Virus record (IMG/VR): IMGVR_UViG_3300028027_000001
DNA from: a virus
Reading direction: 5' to 3' (one strand)
DNA: 64,000 nucleotides
The translations under genes and the position numbers were made by a program. Under the pieces are notes generated by a model. That model worked only from the letters and a program-made list of their open reading frames with translations. It did no database searches and had not been told where the DNA came from. Below are positions 3,514 through 51,067 of this stretch, piece by piece; positions within the stretch are counted from its first letter, which is position 1, and every line of letters begins with the position of its first letter.

Positions 3514-4491
3514 TTATGAATTAGGTAATATGTGGTTTTTGAACTTTCTTAATAATAATCCACCTTGTTCATATGCTTCACGCTCAATTTCAAGTAACTT
3601 TTCATCTTCATGTATATTAGTTGTATTGATGGTTGGTAGGCGATCCTCTAAATTTTGCATATGATGAATATATTCATGACATATTGTAGCTAATACATCA
3701 CGGGGGGAACGGTTAAGAGAATATACGGTTATAGTCAATGTTGAAGGATTATAGTAACCAGTTTTACCAAAGAAATCACTAGCATTTTTAGTGTCGTTAT
3801 CTATTAACTCAACGCGTGGTAATGGTTGCACGTTCATCCCTTCACTAATCATATATTCGTTTAATGATTGAATATAACCTAACAATAATTGACGTGAATC
3901 AGTAGGTTGTTCTATTTCGGTTACTGTGGTTTGTGGGTTAAGTATATTTACTACTTGTTGTTTTTCTTCATCACTCAATATATCTGGGAGGTAGTGTTTA
4001 AATGCTTCATAGTTACCTGATAGTAATGCTTGGCGTGCTTTTGTTCCACTAACATCTGGGTCTCCAGAAAGGACAATGGTTTTAAAATTAGTGTATTTTT
4101 TACCTAGTGAATCAAATCGTTTAATATCGTTTTGGTCTGCTTCTGATCGCATCCCAACTACAGGGAAATAGAAATTTTGTGGATTTTCACCAATTATTTT
4201 ATGTATGTCTATAATAGGTGAATTAGCTTCTGCTATACGAATAGAAACATTTGAAGATAAATGATTTTTATATATTTCCCATATCTCCAAACTTTGATCA
4301 GCAGTTATACCGTCACGTACTTTATGTCCTATTAATACAATTACTTCGTCTATTTCTCCACGTTTTGCTACCTCATTAACTAAATAAAAATGTCCGGATG
4401 TGGGTGGTTTATATCCGCCAGGAATTAATGCTATGGATTTTCCTGGGGTTTCAAGGAATGGTTGGATTAGAGATTCAACTAATTGATTCAT
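3514..4491 (-). CDS. cytidylyltransferase-like (HxGH) nucleotidyltransferase fused to a zincin (HExxH) domain
   Basis: PGGYKPPTSGH and SGTKAR motifs; C-terminal HEYIHHMQ...EREAY. Confidence 0.75.
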   Translation of the reverse strand: MNQLVESLIQPFLETPGKSIALIPGGYKPPTSGHFYLVNEVAKRGEIDEVIVLIGHKVRDGITADQSLEIWEIYKNHLSSNVSIRIAEANSPIIDIHKIIGENPQNFYFPVVGMRSEADQNDIKRFDSLGKKYTNFKTIVLSGDPDVSGTKARQALLSGNYEAFKHYLPDILSDEEKQQVVNILNPQTTVTEIEQPTDSRQLLLGYIQSLNEYMISEGMNVQPLPRVELIDNDTKNASDFFGKTGYYNPSTLTITVYSLNRSPRDVLATICHEYIHHMQNLEDRLPTINTTNIHEDEKLLEIEREAYEQGGLLLRKFKNHILPNS

Positions 4492-5243
4492 GCTAAGAAT
4501 GTGTTTATTTTTTGTTTGGCACTGTCTAATATATCGAATTTTGGTAACGTTTTTACCATTTGCTCTATATCACGATTTAACTGTGCTTTGTTTGCGTCTG
4601 ATTTTGCTTGTTCTTCTGGTGTTTTGGGTTTACCTGTTGCTATTTGATCAAGTAAATATGGTTTTAATAATGCGCTAGAAAACGATTTATTTGCGTCTTT
4701 CGGGTCGTTATTTATTAATATAAAGTTATCGCCAAATTCGCGCGCGTATGTGTCTATATTGCGATTTACATCACGCCATGTTCTCAATACAATACCAGGC
4801 ATTAAACTACGTTCACGTTCTGAATTACGTTGGAGTGAAGTTAATGGGGAAACATAAATCATTAACATTAATGTTGTATATCCAAGTGCCTCGAGTTCCT
4901 GTTTTTTCTTCAGTACTGGGTTGGTTGAGGCTCCTGTCCCATCAATTACTAAGTCTTGCATGTTTTGAATGGTTTGGGATAGTTTATCTTGGGTAACTTT
5001 GCGGGCCTGTGATTGCATTTTGGCTGCTTGTGATAGTTGATCAGGTGTGAAGTTTTTTTGTTTCAGACCTATACCACTAGCTTTCAACATTTCCTCATAT
5101 GTGTCATCTGAATTGATCACAGTTAATGATGGTGGGATAAGTTGCTTAGATATGTATGATTTACCACTGCCTGCAGGGCCAGCTAGGAATATAGCGTGTG
5201 GTTTATTTTGTATTTCTTTAAGTAATTGTATGAGACTAATCAT
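4488..5243 (-). CDS. P-loop kinase (AAA_33/zeta-toxin-like)
   Basis: LAGPAGSGKS Walker A, INSDD, VIDGT, RNSER lid. Confidence 0.8.
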   Translation of the reverse strand: MISLIQLLKEIQNKPHAIFLAGPAGSGKSYISKQLIPPSLTVINSDDTYEEMLKASGIGLKQKNFTPDQLSQAAKMQSQARKVTQDKLSQTIQNMQDLVIDGTGASTNPVLKKKQELEALGYTTLMLMIYVSPLTSLQRNSERERSLMPGIVLRTWRDVNRNIDTYAREFGDNFILINNDPKDANKSFSSALLKPYLLDQIATGKPKTPEEQAKSDANKAQLNRDIEQMVKTLPKFDILDSAKQKINTFLA

Positions 5244-42508: not shown

Positions 42509-43222
42509 TTAATTTTGTCCTTTTGTTTTTTCAGCATACTCCCATCTATAACCATGGGAAGTTTTCTGTTTTCCTTTCAATGCGCTAGTGATACCCCCAT
42601 TAGTGCCTTTATAACCTAAAGCATTTTCTGCCTGAGTTATTGAATCAAAACGTTGTATTATTTCTCCTTCTAAACTTAATTGATAAACTGGTTTGTTTTT
42701 CTTTTCAAAGAATGATGGTTTATGTTTTTTACCTCTTAATAAGTGGGACCTGTTAGGATATGTTCTAGATTTTCGGGTGGCTATGGTTTTATCTATGACT
42801 TCTTGGGGGACTTTATATCCTAATCTAGCTTTTGATTGGCGTTCCCTAGTTTCAATAGATCTCTTTTTCCCTTTATTAGATTGAGATCTTCTTTTATTTT
42901 GATCCTCAGTCCATACTATTCCCTTATTACCTCCTTCTCCCCCTTCACTAATGTTAACTAACATACCATTGGGATCTACATTTTTTCTCCCAAATTGTTT
43001 GATATAATTAATCTCCATTTCACATGCTTGTGATTTAGTTAAATTTTCATGAACTAATTTTACTGTGGGATCACCATGTTTTTCCACGTATCTTTTCCAT
43101 ATTGGGTTCCTCTCCCCAAAATTATAAGGTCTAGATTTAACTGATCCTATTCCTACATAAAATACTTCTTGTGTTGTAGGGTTTAGGTGAAAATAAACAA
43201 AATATATATTATCTTTTGACAT
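42509..43222 (-). CDS. GIY-YIG homing endonuclease with NUMOD3/NUMOD1 DNA-binding repeats
   Basis: VYFH...FYVGIG, E...I..FGR...LVN.SEGGEG, KGKKRS.ETRER.S, KPVYQ.SLEG.II..FDS...A; start revised to MSKDNIY. Confidence 0.85.
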   Translation of the reverse strand: MSKDNIYFVYFHLNPTTQEVFYVGIGSVKSRPYNFGERNPIWKRYVEKHGDPTVKLVHENLTKSQACEMEINYIKQFGRKNVDPNGMLVNISEGGEGGNKGIVWTEDQNKRRSQSNKGKKRSIETRERQSKARLGYKVPQEVIDKTIATRKSRTYPNRSHLLRGKKHKPSFFEKKNKPVYQLSLEGEIIQRFDSITQAENALGYKGTNGGITSALKGKQKTSHGYRWEYAEKTKGQN

Positions 43223-43444
43223 CGTTTTTGTATGGGAATATACAAAACGATATGTTAACATCCTAGTATTCTTTCTAAAAACCTTTACTTCTTTAATTAT
43301 TTTTATTATGAATCTCTTTTAGTTAATTTAACTCTAATTACTTCTCCTTGACCGACAATGATGTTGCCTATTTTAACTGACTTATCTTTAAGATAAAATG
43401 ATGTTACCTTACCGGCTCTATTCTTAACATATATGTAAGGCATA

Positions 43445-49602: not shown

Positions 49603-49801
49603 AACCTTATTTTTGATTGAATATACGAAAAAATATTTGGTAAGACAAATGAAGGCGACAATTTCTTGCCGCCTTACTTACTAGGTCACCGATGCCTCCT
49701 AGCGTGATGGGTTATTTAATGTCATTTTGTCTAATTTCACTTTACGTGACATAGTCGCAGGGTCCCATTTAACTGACAAAACCCGATTCGGTATTAAGGT
49801 G

Positions 49802-49909
49802 TAGTTAGGACAGGATTCGAACCTGTGCAGGGTGTCATCCCCCGGAGCATCTAAAGTTTTGACGTACTTATTATTGAGCTCCTGCATTACCACTTTCTGC
49901 CATCTAACT
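49802..49909 (-). ncRNA. tRNA-like element C (108 nt; 29-nt anticodon loop, long variable arm)
   Basis: AGTTAGA/CCTAACT acceptor, GCA/TGC D-stem, GGAGC/GCTCC stem, GGGG/CCCT variable arm, ACAGG-TTCGAAT-CCTGT T-arm, A73. Confidence 0.75.
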
Positions 49910-50074: not shown

Positions 50075-50140
50075 TAGTTAGGATAGGAATTGAACCTACT
50101 GCCGATTTTTCACGAGGGCCACCATTGCCACTACCTAACT
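50075..50140 (-). ncRNA. tRNA-like element D (66 nt; no recognisable anticodon arm)
   Basis: AGTTAGG/CCTAACT acceptor, GGC/GCC D-like stem, GTAGG-TTCAATT-CCTAT T-arm, A73. Confidence 0.65.
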
Positions 50141-50259: not shown

Positions 50260-50370
50260 TGGTGAGAACAGGACTCGAACCTATATGATAGCTGCAAGCA
50301 GTCTCCACGCTGGATACATTTTAGTGCACCATAACTATCTTTTCGCGTCTACCAATTCCGCCATCTCACC
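50260..50370 (-). ncRNA. tRNA-like element E (111 nt; tRNA-Leu-type D arm, replaced middle)
   Basis: GGTGAGA/TCTCACC acceptor, TGGCGGAATTGGTAGACGCG D arm, ATAGG-TTCGAGT-CCTGT T-arm, A73. Confidence 0.75.
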
Positions 50371-50538
50371 TTAATTACAGTAGGTTGTAAGGTACTTGTT
50401 AGTTAGACTTTCTCTTACCCCTTTATTAACCTGTATCAAAAATTTTTATTTTGGACCTAACTGGTGGAAACTTGAAAAAACCACCTCACGTATAGTACAC
50501 TCACCTAAGAACTACCAAAGACTTATGCCTAACTGTCG

Positions 50539-50617
50539 TAGTCAGATTAGGACTCGAACCTAAATTAAGATGCCTATTGGACTCATACTTCTCCTATTCC
50601 AATTAGAGGATCTGACT
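50539..50617 (-). ncRNA. tRNA-like element F (79 nt; irregular anticodon arm)
   Basis: AGTCAGA/TCTGACT acceptor, CTC/GAG D-stem with GG, TTAGG-TTCGAGT-CCTAA T-arm, A73. Confidence 0.7.
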
Positions 50618-50782
50618 ATAAAAAACAGGAAGCACCTGTTCAGATCTTGGACACTAGTATACTTATCCTCCTGTTTCGCCACCCATGCCTTTGGGTCAAT
50701 CTGTTTTGTAGTTTTATGTTTTCACATCTACATGACTTTAACTACAAAAGTACGCGTAGTAATTTAATTCCCCACGCGGAAT

Positions 50783-50859
50783 GAGGTTGAGAGCCTCTGT
50801 GTTGTAATATATCAATTTAACATTCTTAATATTTATTCACTTCTCACATGAACAACACA
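50783..50859 (-). ncRNA. kissing-loop RNA motif copy 1
   Basis: TGTGTTGT/ACAACACA stem, TGAGAA loop, terminal GAGG-CTCTCAA-CCTC hairpin. Confidence 0.6.
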
Positions 50860-50946
50860 TATAACCAGTCGCTCGCTTTAGAGTCAGCCACCCACTAATG
50901 GATCGCACAGGAATCTAATTTCTCACACCTGTACTGATTATTATTT

Positions 50947-51040
50947 GAGGTTGAGAACCACTGTGTTGTGAGTAAGATTCTTACTTTTCAGTATGTTTCT
51001 CTCCTTTACCTTCTTACGCCTTTCTCAAGGGAACAACACA
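50947..51040 (-). ncRNA. kissing-loop RNA motif copy 2
   Basis: TGTGTTGT/ACAACACA stem, TTGAGAA loop, terminal GTGG-TTCTCAA-CCTC hairpin. Confidence 0.6.
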
Positions 51041-51067
51041 TTTCTTTTTATACCTAAATATACGAAT

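What the first reader, a model, noticed from the sequence alone, without database searches (positions are those of the whole stretch)
50783..51040. Duplicated small RNA motif with a predicted loop-loop pseudoknot
Seen: two copies (77 and 94 nt) with one architecture. P1 is TGTGTTGT/ACAACACA. An inner hairpin has a different stem in each copy (TTCAT/GTGAA vs CCT/AGG) but keeps the loop TGAGAA. A variable A-rich linker follows, then a 3' hairpin G(A/T)GG-YTCTCAA-CCTC whose loop is complementary to TGAGA(A). Conserved complementary loops on divergent stems are the signature of a kissing interaction. I do not recognise it as a named Rfam family. Inference: an unknown ribozyme, protein-sponge RNA or nuclease-resistant element.
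Basis: partly seen in the sequence, partly recalled or inferred. Interest (0 to 1): 0.7.

Follow-up and report, generated by a model that had tools for sequence, protein, structure and literature searches.

The report
Kissing-loop RNA in phage tRNA operon
The two repeats are genuine genes of a widespread, uncatalogued family of small folded phage RNAs whose loop-to-loop contact is confirmed by matching mutations in relatives. A relative lies in a stretch of a cultured phage that is reported to be abundantly transcribed, but the job of the RNA is still unknown.

Summary
Confirmed. Both copies (minus strand, 50859-50783 and 51040-50947) have the anatomy described. A covariance model scores them 77.9 and 68.7 bits and finds about 170 more copies in about 150 uncultured-phage contigs.

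- **Context:** 546 of 548 nearby tRNA genes share the strand, and copies often end 1-6 nt before a tRNA, tRNA-like or tmRNA gene.
- **Rfam 15:** no match, even at E<=10.
- **Loop-loop pairing (UUGAGAA with UUCUCA):** now supported by covariation. Wherever the first loop's G18, G20 or A21 changed and the position is paired, the second loop carries the complementary change. The only A19 variants are A to G, which keeps a wobble pair.
- **Closing helix:** nearly invariant, but its changes are wobble-biased in the way expected only for minus-strand RNA.
- **Long form:** 120-320 nt, with the same core.
- **Cultured relative:** one long-form member lies in Cellulophaga crAss-like phage phi14:2, in a non-coding stretch that I infer to be one of two junctions reported as abundantly and persistently transcribed.

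Most likely it is a stable non-coding RNA cut out by tRNA processing that acts through a sequence-specific partner. A ribozyme, a leader or insulator, and a self-assembling RNA are not excluded. Follow-up notes of this scan describe similar kissing-loop RNAs in phage tRNA arrays on other DNA.

The parts
50947..51040 (-). Copy 2 (upstream copy, 94 nt) of the kissing-loop RNA, short form (type A)
   Evidence: R1 68.7 bits, E 1e-12; sequence. Its insert is nearly identical to that of L029:6233-6331.
50783..50859 (-). Copy 1 (downstream copy, 77 nt) of the kissing-loop RNA, short form (type A)
   Evidence: R1 77.9 bits, E 1e-14; sequence.
51033..51040 (-). Copy 2, P1 5' strand U-GUGUUGU; pairs with 50962-50969
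   Evidence: In 157 distinct family members, P1 changes are mostly C>U and A>G on the 3' strand, giving G.U or U.G wobbles. There are compensatory C-G pairs at pairs 2 and 6. The outer pair covaries among U-A, C-G and A-U (Fisher p = 1.6e-5).
51022..51028 (-). Copy 2, loop L2 UUGAGAA of the inner hairpin P2 (stem 51029-51032 with 51018-51021, imperfect in this copy)
   Evidence: L2 is UUGAGAA in about 140 of 154 members. The P2 stem covaries: UCC/GGA, UCAU/AUGA, ACC/GGU, and CAC/GUG in phi14:2.
50962..50969 (-). Copy 2, P1 3' strand ACAACAC-A
50947..50961 (-). Copy 2, 3' hairpin P4 GUGG/CCUC with loop L4 UUCUCAA (50951-50957), fully complementary to L2
   Evidence: The P4 stem covaries in relatives: GAGG/CCUC, AAUG/CAUU, AAGG/CCUU, GAAG/CUUC, and the 5-bp forms GAGGA/UCCUC and GAGGG/CCCUC. 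L2-L4 covariation is shown.
50852..50859 (-). Copy 1, P1 5' strand U-GUGUUGU; pairs with 50798-50805
50837..50851 (-). Copy 1, inner hairpin P2 UCAU/GUGA with loop L2 GUGAGAA (50841-50847)
   Evidence: This copy fixes the register of P2 as a 7-nt loop rather than a GAGA tetraloop.
50783..50797 (-). Copy 1, 3' hairpin P4 GAGG/CCUC with loop L4 CUCUCAA (50787-50793)
50806..50836 (-). Copy 1, variable A/U-rich insert between P2 and the P1 3' strand
   Evidence: There are 142 distinct inserts in the family, 20-106 nt long and 37% A. Their mean folding z-score is -0.5. They match nothing in the fetched loci other than other inserts.
50970..51017 (-). Copy 2, variable insert with a terminal 6-bp hairpin AGUAAG/CUUACU next to P1
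51044..51084 (-). Possible promoter of the RNA operon: a sigma-70-like match with -10 TATATT ending at 51057, and a TATAAAAA (T4-late-like) box at about 51052-51045. Weak evidence.
   Evidence: 7 such sites found against 7.5 expected in shuffles, so this is position only. The likeness of the box to a T4 late promoter is from my own knowledge.

Best explanation
The two repeats are paralogous genes of a widespread, undescribed family of small structured phage RNAs. The short form is about 75-150 nt; a long form is 120-320 nt.

**Biogenesis (inferred).** The RNA is transcribed as part of the phage's tRNA/tRNA-like operon on the minus strand. It is cut out by the host tRNA-processing machinery. 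Its 3' end would be made by RNase P cleaving at the 5' end of the tRNA, tRNA-like or tmRNA gene that often follows 1-6 nt later. This is the way the MALAT1 3' end is made next to mascRNA.

**Fold (shown by comparison).**
- A 7-8 bp closing helix, GUGUUGU/ACAACAC.
- A 3-4 bp hairpin presenting the 7-nt loop UUGAGAA.
- A hypervariable A-rich insert.
- Outside the closing helix, the sequence UUCUCA. It sits in a 4-5 bp hairpin loop in the short form and in a junction in the long form. It pairs with UUGAGAA over 5-7 bp.

**Function (inferred, about 1 in 3).** A stable, trans-acting RNA that is recognised sequence-specifically by a protein or RNA partner, that is, a decoy, sponge or scaffold. The inference rests on the near-invariance of helix and loop nucleotides while the insert evolves freely, and on the abundance and persistence reported for the phi14:2 non-coding stretch that holds a relative.
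For: **Family and strand**
- R1 finds 108 + 61 copies (157 distinct) in about 150 loci, with a clean score gap.
- 546 of 548 tRNAs within 3 kb are on the element's strand.
- P1 changes sit on the 3' strand as C>U and A>G. These keep G.U or U.G pairs only in minus-strand RNA.

**Fold**
- P2 and P4 stems carry double compensatory changes.
- The P1 outer pair covaries (p = 1.6e-5).
- P1 pairs 2 and 6 have C-G replacements.

**Loop-loop helix**
Scans forced to find L2 variants returned the following.
- L214 and L215: UUGAUAA with UUAUCA, so G20-C becomes U-A. These are two different backgrounds.
- L216: UUUAGAA with UUCUAG, so G18-C becomes U-A.
- L186 (1385-1476): GAAA with UUUC, so G-C becomes A-U.
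- L218, L219, L221 and L222: UUGAGCA with (U/C)GCUCA, so A21-U becomes C-G.
- A19 variants are only A>G, a wobble with U.
- On alignment A5, 4 of 6 pairs have changes on both sides, 92% of cells are paired, and 0 of 500 shuffles reach the observed values.
- L215 carries two paralogs with different loop pairs, each L2 matching its own L4.

**Processing context**
- 30 of 169 elements have an ARAGORN tRNA starting within 5 nt of the model's 3' end.
- 59 of 108 short-form copies have a T-loop motif 35-125 nt downstream, against a 6% background.
- Long-form copies abut tmRNA (L151, L175; L121 is close) or tRNA-like genes.

**Expression**
- A long-form member (44.9 bits, E 2e-8) lies at KC821624 3130-3375, plus strand, in phage phi14:2.
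- That position is between g004 (ends 2904) and g006 (starts 4602).
- Drobysheva et al. (doi 10.1101/2020.03.07.982082) report that the g004-g005 and g005-g006 junctions are transcribed rightward above most protein genes, from the earliest time point, without later decline.
Against:
- **The phi14:2 mapping is inferred.** Assigning the RNA to the reported 'g004-g005 junction' rests on RefSeq gene names, because the paper's coordinate table was not available.
- **No partner has been identified.**
- **Neighbourhoods vary.** About half of the copies are not directly followed by a recognisable tRNA, and neither copy in this window is.
- **The invariance of P1 is unexplained.** It would fit a catalytic core or a DNA-level site as well as a protein-binding site.
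- **The short-form geometry is tight.** With a 0-1 nt linker between P1 and P4, P2 + kiss + P4 (about 14 bp) cannot easily lie alongside a 7-8 bp P1. The drawn intramolecular fold may therefore be incomplete.
- **Many compensatory examples may share ancestry.** The C21-G examples may be one event, so the number of independent events is about 4-5.
Confidence: 0.45

Rival explanations
1. It is a cis-acting element of the polycistronic tRNA transcript. As a structured leader or insulator it would keep neighbouring tRNAs from misfolding, block 3'-5' exonucleases, or help RNase P processing of the tRNA that follows. It would have no function once released.
For: Copies often sit immediately 5' of tRNA, tRNA-like or tmRNA genes, and sometimes at the head of the operon. 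A clamped hairpin at the 3' side would resist exonucleases (inference).
Against: An insulator needs a fold, not a sequence, yet about 45 nucleotides are nearly invariant across T4-like, jumbo and crAss-like phages. The spacing to the next tRNA varies from 1 nt to hundreds of nt, and many copies have no tRNA after them. In phi14:2 ARAGORN finds no tRNA gene in the first 5 kb and the nearest tmRNA gene lies about 650 nt downstream, yet the non-coding stretch is reported as abundant and persistent.
Confidence: 0.2
2. The loop-loop pairing is made between molecules. Each RNA has one UUGAGAA loop and one UUCUCA loop at opposite ends of a P2-P1-P4 stack, so copies would assemble head to tail into rings or chains. 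This is what phi29 pRNA does, and what GOLLD and ROOL do with quaternary kissing loops.
For: Helix lengths make the intramolecular kiss strained in the short form (inference). In ROOL, a kissing loop first read as a tertiary contact from covariation proved to be quaternary (PMC12286853). GOLLD occurs in the same phage contigs (L010, L011). Paralogs in L215 have orthogonal loop pairs, as self-assembling units would need.
Against: Covariation cannot tell cis from trans. In the long form UUCUCA lies 7 nt after P1 in a non-hairpin context, which suits an ordinary intramolecular pseudoknot. The distance from P1 to UUCUCA is similar (5-7 nt) in both forms. No physical data exist.
Confidence: 0.12
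3. It is a new class of small self-cleaving ribozyme that helps cut the tRNA operon transcript.
For: It is small and pseudoknotted, with a highly conserved core and a variable peripheral insert. It lies in phage tRNA arrays, where HDV-like 'theta' ribozymes are known (the last point is from my own knowledge, not re-read here).
Against: No match to any Rfam ribozyme model at E<=10. The conserved nucleotides lie almost entirely in predicted helices; there are few conserved unpaired junction nucleotides to build an active site. Distances to neighbouring tRNA ends vary, so cleavage would not produce mature ends. Threading onto the HDV-like and pistol topologies by hand fails, because the strand order differs.
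Confidence: 0.1
4. The variable insert is a guide. The conserved ends would form a scaffold for an RNA-guided protein, and the insert would pair with a target.
For: The constant-ends, variable-middle layout and 142 different inserts. Copies occur in tandem in some phages.
Against: Inserts vary from 20 to 106 nt, are A-rich, and half of them form a small hairpin against P1. They match nothing in about 1.8 Mb of fetched phage DNA other than other inserts. Host targets were not searched. No conserved neighbouring effector gene was noticed, though neighbours were not compared systematically.
Confidence: 0.05
5. It is a DNA-level feature, such as a protein-binding inverted repeat, a homing-endonuclease site or a miniature mobile element, and not an RNA.
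For: The near-invariant 7-8 bp inverted repeat flanking variable DNA, and the presence of a NUMOD-type endonuclease-like gene in the window.
Against: The two complementarities are interleaved (pseudoknot order), which double-stranded DNA cannot use. The substitutions are G.U-type and strand-specific. The element shares a strand with tRNAs in 546 of 548 cases. The phi14:2 region is transcribed.
Confidence: 0.02

Closest known systems
Abundant early 'long non-coding RNA' of Cellulophaga phage phi14:2 (g004-g005 junction; Drobysheva et al., doi 10.1101/2020.03.07.982082)
   Same: This is a true family member of the long form, at KC821624 3130-3375 on the plus strand (R1 44.9 bits). It has the same P1, the same L2 UUGAGAA, the same UUCUCAGC, and the downstream ACCCUAC...GAGGGUGCUAA domain. 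Its P2 stem is changed compensatorily to CAC/GUG.
   Different: The paper reports only that the junction is highly and persistently transcribed; it describes no structure, family or function. My assignment of the RNA to that junction rests on RefSeq gene names. ARAGORN finds no tRNA gene in the first 5 kb of phi14:2. The window copies are the short form.
Phage T4 species 2 and species 1 RNAs (rnaD, rnaC; AF158101 71053-71171 and 70908-71046)
   Same: These are small stable RNAs of unknown function encoded inside a phage tRNA cluster, on the tRNA strand and next to tRNA genes. They work the same way in the sense that they are co-transcribed with tRNAs and cut out by tRNA processing (that part is textbook knowledge, not tested here). 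T4 rnaD even contains UUCCCUGAGUAAGGAA.
   Different: R1 scores rnaD only 11 bits, E 0.24. In rnaD homologues the UUCCC..GGAA hairpin is not kept, and the segment pairs differently. Homology is not shown.
GOLLD (RF02032) and ROOL (RF03087) phage RNAs
   Same: Phage-encoded, near tRNA islands, of unknown function, and held together by kissing loops (PMC12286853). GOLLD is present in the same contigs as this family (L010, L011).
   Different: They are 400-800 nt ornate RNAs with unrelated sequence and fold. Neither model hit the element, nor anything else in the window, which has no gathering-threshold match apart from one tRNA. Multimerisation of the present RNA is untested.
freshwater-1 RNA (RF02979)
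   Same: A small structured RNA of unknown function from lake metagenomes. It is found here in the same phage tRNA arrays (L010, L011).
   Different: A different 62-nt motif, with no match to the element.
phi29 packaging RNA (pRNA)
   Same: One RNA carrying two mutually complementary loops that covary (from my own knowledge).
   Different: In pRNA a 4-nt intermolecular pairing forms a ring on the portal of terminal-protein phages. There is no sequence or context likeness. The comparison is architectural only.

Membership tests
Any Rfam 15 family (4227 models, including hammerhead, HDV-like, twister, twister-sister, pistol, hatchet, Drum, Y RNA/YrlA, GOLLD, ROOL, freshwater-1) | A covariance-model score at or near the family's gathering threshold | tested here: not met
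   On the element there are no hits except noise at or below 16 bits, with E>=1.4. This holds for the whole window, for 1.9 kb and 276 nt around the element, and for a minimal 78-nt member.
The new family itself (model R1) | P1 GUGUUGU/ACAACAC; P2 hairpin with loop (U/G)UGAGAA; UUCUCA 5-7 nt after P1; score of at least 33 bits | tested here: met
   The window copies score 77.9 and 68.7 bits. All features can be read directly.
T4 rnaD (species 2 RNA) | Sequence and structure similarity to rnaD and its Tevenvirinae homologues | tested here: not met
   R1 on the T4 tRNA region scores 11 bits, E 0.24. The consensus fold of six rnaD homologues differs.
T4 rnaD (species 2 RNA) | Location inside a phage tRNA cluster, on the same strand, next to tRNA genes | tested here: met
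tRNA / tRNA-like | Cloverleaf with T-arm, D-arm and anticodon arm | tested here: not met
   ARAGORN finds nothing in the window. The Rfam tRNA model hits only the neighbouring genes, not the element.
HDV-like / theta ribozymes | Nested double pseudoknot in the order P1-P2-P3-P1'-P4-P2', with conserved L3 and a J4/2 cytosine | tested here: not met
   No Rfam hit. The sequence before the P1 3' strand is variable, and no conserved C precedes the pseudoknot 3' strand. The comparison of topologies was made by hand.
Self-cleaving ribozyme (any class) | Site-specific self-scission | not testable with these tools
   This needs an in-vitro cleavage assay.
Intramolecular kissing-loop / pseudoknot RNA | Complementarity of the two loops kept by compensatory changes in homologues | tested here: met
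   G18-C, G20-C and A21-U are replaced by U-A, U-A or A-U, and C-G. A19 changes only to G.
Intramolecular kissing-loop / pseudoknot RNA | The pairing occurs within one molecule | not testable with these tools
   Covariation cannot separate cis from trans. Orthogonal loop pairs in two paralogs of L215 show only that each RNA matches itself.

The most novel reading that the evidence does not exclude
The RNA is not a passive folded product. It may be a self-assembling unit whose two complementary loops join copies head to tail into rings or chains, a miniature counterpart of the GOLLD and ROOL nanocages carried by the same phages. Or it may be a new class of small ribozyme acting on the tRNA operon transcript. 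Either would explain why helix and loop nucleotides are frozen across T4-like, jumbo and crAss-like phages.
Probability: 0.2. Interest if true: 0.85.

Novelty: new variant of a known kind. Interest (0 to 1): 0.62.

Why it matters
Phage tRNA islands are turning out to be islands of non-coding RNA (T4 RNA C and D, GOLLD, ROOL, freshwater-1), and not one of these has a known function after up to 50 years.

This family has several practical advantages:
- **Small:** about 80 nt at its minimum.
- **Extremely conserved:** the core is nearly invariant across unrelated phage lineages.
- **Well-supported fold:** a tertiary or quaternary contact is backed by covariation.
- **Testable:** a member lies in a culturable phage-host pair (phi14:2 and Cellulophaga baltica), in a stretch whose transcript was already reported as unusually abundant and persistent.

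That makes the open question of what these RNAs do directly testable by deletion, pull-down, native gels and structure work. It also flags spurious small ORFs annotated over such RNAs in phage genomes.

Tried and rejected
- **Single-sequence folding:** energies are not significant, so they were not used as evidence.
- **INPHARED blastn with the window region:** no true match. Only a long-form query and a 5-bp-stem short-form query found phi14:2.
- **Whole genome of the window:** not held.
- **Bacterial and archaeal species genomes:**
  - The 3' module gave 0 hits.
  - The 5' module gave 8 hits, all metagenome-assembled contigs assigned to seven different groups.
  - These are probably mis-binned phage DNA, so they give no host assignment.
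- **T4 rnaD homology:** an attractive local match (UUCCCUGAGUAAGGAA), but it is not kept in rnaD relatives.
- **Anticodon-loop mimicry by L4:**
  - NUCUCAA fits U33 and R37.
  - I rejected it because the 5-bp-stem variant shifts the loop register by one while keeping UUCUCA.
- **Promoter inside the element:**
  - TTGAGA looks like a -35 box.
  - There is no consistent -10 box at the right spacing (by eye).
- **Coding:** insert lengths vary freely, and the small ORFs over the region are on the other strand and not conserved.
- **Guide RNA:** inserts match no other fetched DNA.
- **GNRA-tetraloop register for P2 (CCUU-GAGA-AAGG, the MFE choice):** contradicted by copy 1, L004, L008 and phi14:2, which support only the 7-nt-loop register.
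- **Literature:** string searches for the conserved modules found nothing relevant.
Full report
**1. The observation**

All genes and tRNA-like genes around the site lie on the minus strand, and the motif is read on that strand.

Copy 1 (50859-50783, 77 nt) reads as follows:
- U-GUGUUGU
- UCAU-GUGAGAA-GUGA
- a 31-nt A/U-rich insert
- ACAACAC-A
- GAGG-CUCUCAA-CCUC

Copy 2 (51040-50947, 94 nt) reads as follows:
- U-GUGUUGU
- UCCC-UUGAGAA-AGGC
- a 48-nt insert
- ACAACAC-A
- GUGG-UUCUCAA-CCUC

The 23-nt 3' module occurs twice in the window against 0.00 expected. Direct-repeat detection finds the two modules at 92% and 85% identity, while the DNA between them is unrelated.

**2. It is a large family**

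- The 3' module occurs exactly in 38 IMG/VR loci.
- With a free loop, the pattern finds further members.
- A covariance model built from 39 members (A1, R1) finds 108 + 61 copies, 157 of them distinct, in about 150 loci.
- Members score at least 33 bits and everything else at most 27 bits.
- Genomes carry one or two copies, sometimes more.
- The contigs include pieces of 150-187 kb that CheckV rates 51-64% complete, so they are jumbo phages related to the window.
- The window itself encodes baseplate-wedge, Hoc-like, primase and thymidylate-synthase proteins.
- Representative genomes of 185,579 bacterial and archaeal species hold the 5' module only in 8 metagenome-assembled contigs. These are assigned to seven different groups and several come from lakes. 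No isolate genome has it.

**3. It is not a described family**

Rfam 15 gives nothing on the element at gathering thresholds or at E<=10. This holds for the whole window, for 1.9 kb, for 276 nt, and for a minimal 78-nt member. The long form gives nothing either. Text searches for the conserved strings in the paper library found nothing relevant.

**4. Context**

- Of 548 ARAGORN tRNAs within 3 kb of an element, 546 are on its strand.
- 30 of 169 elements have a tRNA starting within 5 nt of the model's 3' end; Leu, Phe, Gly, Met, Ile and others are represented.
- 59 of 108 non-redundant short-form copies have a T-loop motif 35-125 nt downstream, against a 6% background.
- The same contigs also carry GOLLD, freshwater-1 and tmRNA genes.

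The element therefore belongs to the non-coding RNA islands that accompany phage tRNA arrays. In the window it heads a 1.4-kb gene-free stretch that also holds four tRNA-like genes with oversized insertions. A terminator-like hairpin lies at 49675-49652.

**5. The fold**

*P2 and P4.* Both stems covary.
- P2: UCC/GGA, UCAU/AUGA, ACC/GGU, and CAC/GUG in phi14:2.
- P4: GAGG/CCUC, AAUG/CAUU, AAGG/CCUU, GAAG/CUUC, and the 5-bp forms GAGGA/UCCUC and GAGGG/CCCUC.
- Sources.

*P1.* It is almost invariant, but the way it varies is informative.
- 26 changes are C>U or A>G on the 3' strand, giving G.U or U.G pairs.
- Only about 5 are the opposite transitions on the 5' strand.
- Pairs 2 and 6 each have C-G replacements.
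- The outer pair switches among U-A, C-G and A-U (Fisher p = 1.6e-5).
- G.U-type tolerance exists only in RNA of the minus strand. This also excludes a purely DNA-level reading.

*The loop-loop helix.* Both loops are so conserved that the first alignment gave no double changes. I therefore scanned IMG/VR, and for position 19 also the metagenome collection, for 5' modules forced to differ at one L2 position. The 3' side was left free.

| L2 change | Loci | L4 found | Result |
|---|---|---|---|
| G20>U | L214, L215 (different inserts, different P4 types) | UUAUCA | U-A |
| G18>U | L216 (long form) | UUCUAG | U-A |
| G20>A | L186 (1385-1476) | UUUC | A-U |
| A21>C | L218, L219, L221, L222 | (U/C)GCUCA | C-G |
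| A21>C | L220 | UGCUUC | C21-G kept; the pairs beyond it are weaker |
| A21>G | L217 (identical to L223) | AACUCAA | position unpaired in that L4 type |
| A19>G only | L224, L226 | unchanged | wobble with U |

On alignment A5, 4 of 6 pairs of this helix have changes on both sides, 92% of cells pair, and no shuffle or slid register comes close. A5 was enriched for L2 variants by design, but the L4 side was never selected, so the test is fair. Independent events number perhaps four or five.

L214 differs from L001 and L224 by little more than this double change, which points to a recent compensated substitution. L215 carries two paralogs 290 nt apart with different loop pairs, each self-matching.

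*The insert.* There are 142 distinct sequences of 20-106 nt with 37% A. They are only weakly structured (mean z -0.5; half have a small helix against P1). They match nothing else in the fetched DNA.

**6. A long form, and expression**

About 48 copies continue after ACAACAC as follows:
- AAAUGAG-UUCUCAGC
- an optional hairpin (GUAGUUAA...UUAACUAC)
- GUG
- a long hairpin (ACCCUAC...GAGGGU)
- GCUAAA

The total length is 120-320 nt. UUCUCA lies 7 nt after P1, much as in the short form, and it covaries with L2 in the same way. Several long-form copies end directly before a tmRNA or a tRNA-like gene.

BLAST with a long-form member found Cellulophaga phage phi14:2, a cultured crAss-like phage. R1 scores KC821624 3130-3228 at 44.9 bits, and the full domain runs to about 3373.

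The record's small minus-strand ORFs over this stretch were withdrawn in RefSeq. There the stretch lies between g004 (ends 2904) and g006 (starts 4602). A phage tmRNA lies at 4031-4502.

Drobysheva et al. report that the g004-g005 and g005-g006 junctions are transcribed rightward above most protein-coding genes. The transcripts are present from the earliest sample and do not decline, and their function is undetermined. I infer that the family member is the first of these RNAs and the tmRNA the second. The coordinate table was not available.

**7. How it probably works**

*Shown:* a conserved RNA on the tRNA strand with P1, P2, the loop-loop helix and, in the short form, P4.

*Inferred, well grounded:* it is co-transcribed with the tRNA genes. 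Its 3' end is made when RNase P cuts the tRNA, tRNA-like or tmRNA that follows.

*Inferred, weaker:* the released RNA is stable and acts in trans through a sequence-specific partner. The reasons are these:
- about 45 nucleotides, including helix positions, are frozen across very different phages while the insert drifts;
- the phi14:2 non-coding stretch that holds a family member is reported as abundant throughout infection.

*A caveat on geometry.* In the short form P1 abuts P4 with 0-1 nt and runs straight into P2. P2 + kiss + P4 is then about 14 bp, which is hard to lay beside a 7-8 bp P1. The kiss may therefore be made between molecules, as proved true for a ROOL kissing loop first read as a tertiary contact. 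Alternatively it may alternate with P4.

*Rivals:* a cis-acting leader or insulator, a self-assembling RNA, a new ribozyme, a guide scaffold, and a DNA-level element. They are weighed in the Rival explanations section.

**8. Comparison with known systems**

By context and presumed biogenesis the family resembles T4 RNA D and RNA C. Homology is not shown: R1 scores rnaD 11 bits, and the one similar hairpin in T4 rnaD is not kept in its relatives. By company and by its use of kissing loops it resembles GOLLD and ROOL, but it is ten times smaller and unrelated in sequence. It is a new family within the known kind of 'phage tRNA-island RNAs of unknown function'.

**9. Earlier notes of this scan**

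The scan's notes show that other agents met comparable kissing-loop RNAs in phage tRNA arrays on other DNA. One note (e1-5679601) describes a constant-end, variable-middle family with a transcribed relative in a cultured phage. It may be this same family; I could not compare sequences. I found phi14:2 by my own BLAST after reading that lead.

**Verdict**

- The structural interpretation is supported and extended.
- The function is open.
- Interest is moderately high, because the fold is well supported, the family is widespread and uncatalogued, and a culturable test system exists.

Noticed in passing
window 49802-49909, 50075-50140, 50260-50370 and about 50538-50625, all minus strand: Four tRNA-like genes share a canonical T-arm and acceptor end (repeat family D1). 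Three match the Rfam tRNA model at 26-36 bits, two with an insertion in or in place of the anticodon arm (29 nt where the 7-nt loop belongs; 53 nt where 17 nt belong) and one shortened. ARAGORN calls none of them. They may be non-decoding 'punctuation' for the RNA operon, or intron-bearing tRNAs.
   Followed up: partly
L108, L124, L151, L153, L161 and others (for example L151:526-692:-); phi14:2 KC821624 3130-3375: This is the long form of the family (120-320 nt). After the shared core it carries an optional GUAGUUAA/UUAACUAC hairpin and a conserved ACCCUAC...GAGGGUGCUAAA hairpin. Some copies have a further hairpin inserted between AAAUGAG and UUCUCAGC. Its 3' domain was not modelled.
   Followed up: partly
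L151 182-505, L175 6336-6671, L121 2254-2656, L140 1144-1462; phi14:2 NC_021806 4031-4502: Phage tmRNA genes lie just downstream of long-form copies, 10-20 nt after the RNA's end in L151 and L175. In phi14:2 the tmRNA is not annotated, and it probably accounts for the second 'abundant intergenic transcript' of the published RNA-seq.
   Followed up: partly
L003:1900-1994, L010:5770-5861, L011, L006, L036, L029 and others, directly 5' of the element: A second conserved non-coding segment, ...UUAAGAUUGGAGCGAGACGGGUACUCCAUCACUAUCAA..., directly precedes the element in at least 15 loci. It has no Rfam match and is probably the 3' end of another uncatalogued RNA.
   Followed up: no
window 50862-50946 minus strand; L012 between its two copies: The 85-nt unit between the two copies is conserved in L012 (shared GNCUGACUCUAAAGCGAGCGACUG). 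In the window it carries a third UGAGAA in a hairpin loop (ACAGG...CCUGU); L012 does not keep that loop.
   Followed up: no
L010 11836-12243, L011 2193-2606 (GOLLD); L010 3348-3409, L011 10852-10913 (freshwater-1): The same phage contigs carry GOLLD and freshwater-1 RNAs near their tRNA arrays. No GOLLD was found in this 64-kb window.
   Followed up: no
L012 10000-10072 (contig related to the window's phage): ARAGORN calls a tRNA with anticodon CUA (an amber suppressor, labelled tRNA-Pyl), plus several tRNAs with odd anticodon loops. This may hint at stop-codon reassignment or suppressor use in this phage group. The window's ORFs read well under table 11.
   Followed up: no
window 50623-50641 and 49652-49675, minus strand: There are two terminator-like hairpins with U-rich tails. 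One lies inside the RNA operon, just before the fourth tRNA-like gene. The other lies at the operon's end.
   Followed up: no
L200 1554-1672 (T4 rnaD) and homologues L201-L205: Six Tevenvirinae rnaD homologues share a consensus fold: a conserved 5' hairpin, a long-range helix GUCGUCG/CGGCGCAC, and an inner variable hairpin. Ten of its pairs carry compensatory changes. The RNA contains CUGAUG...GAAAC, reminiscent of a hammerhead core, but has no stem I.
   Followed up: partly
window 42509-43261 minus strand: A 250-aa protein with NUMOD1 / I-HmuI-like DNA-binding motifs, which is homing-endonuclease-like. It lies about 7 kb from the RNA operon.
   Followed up: no
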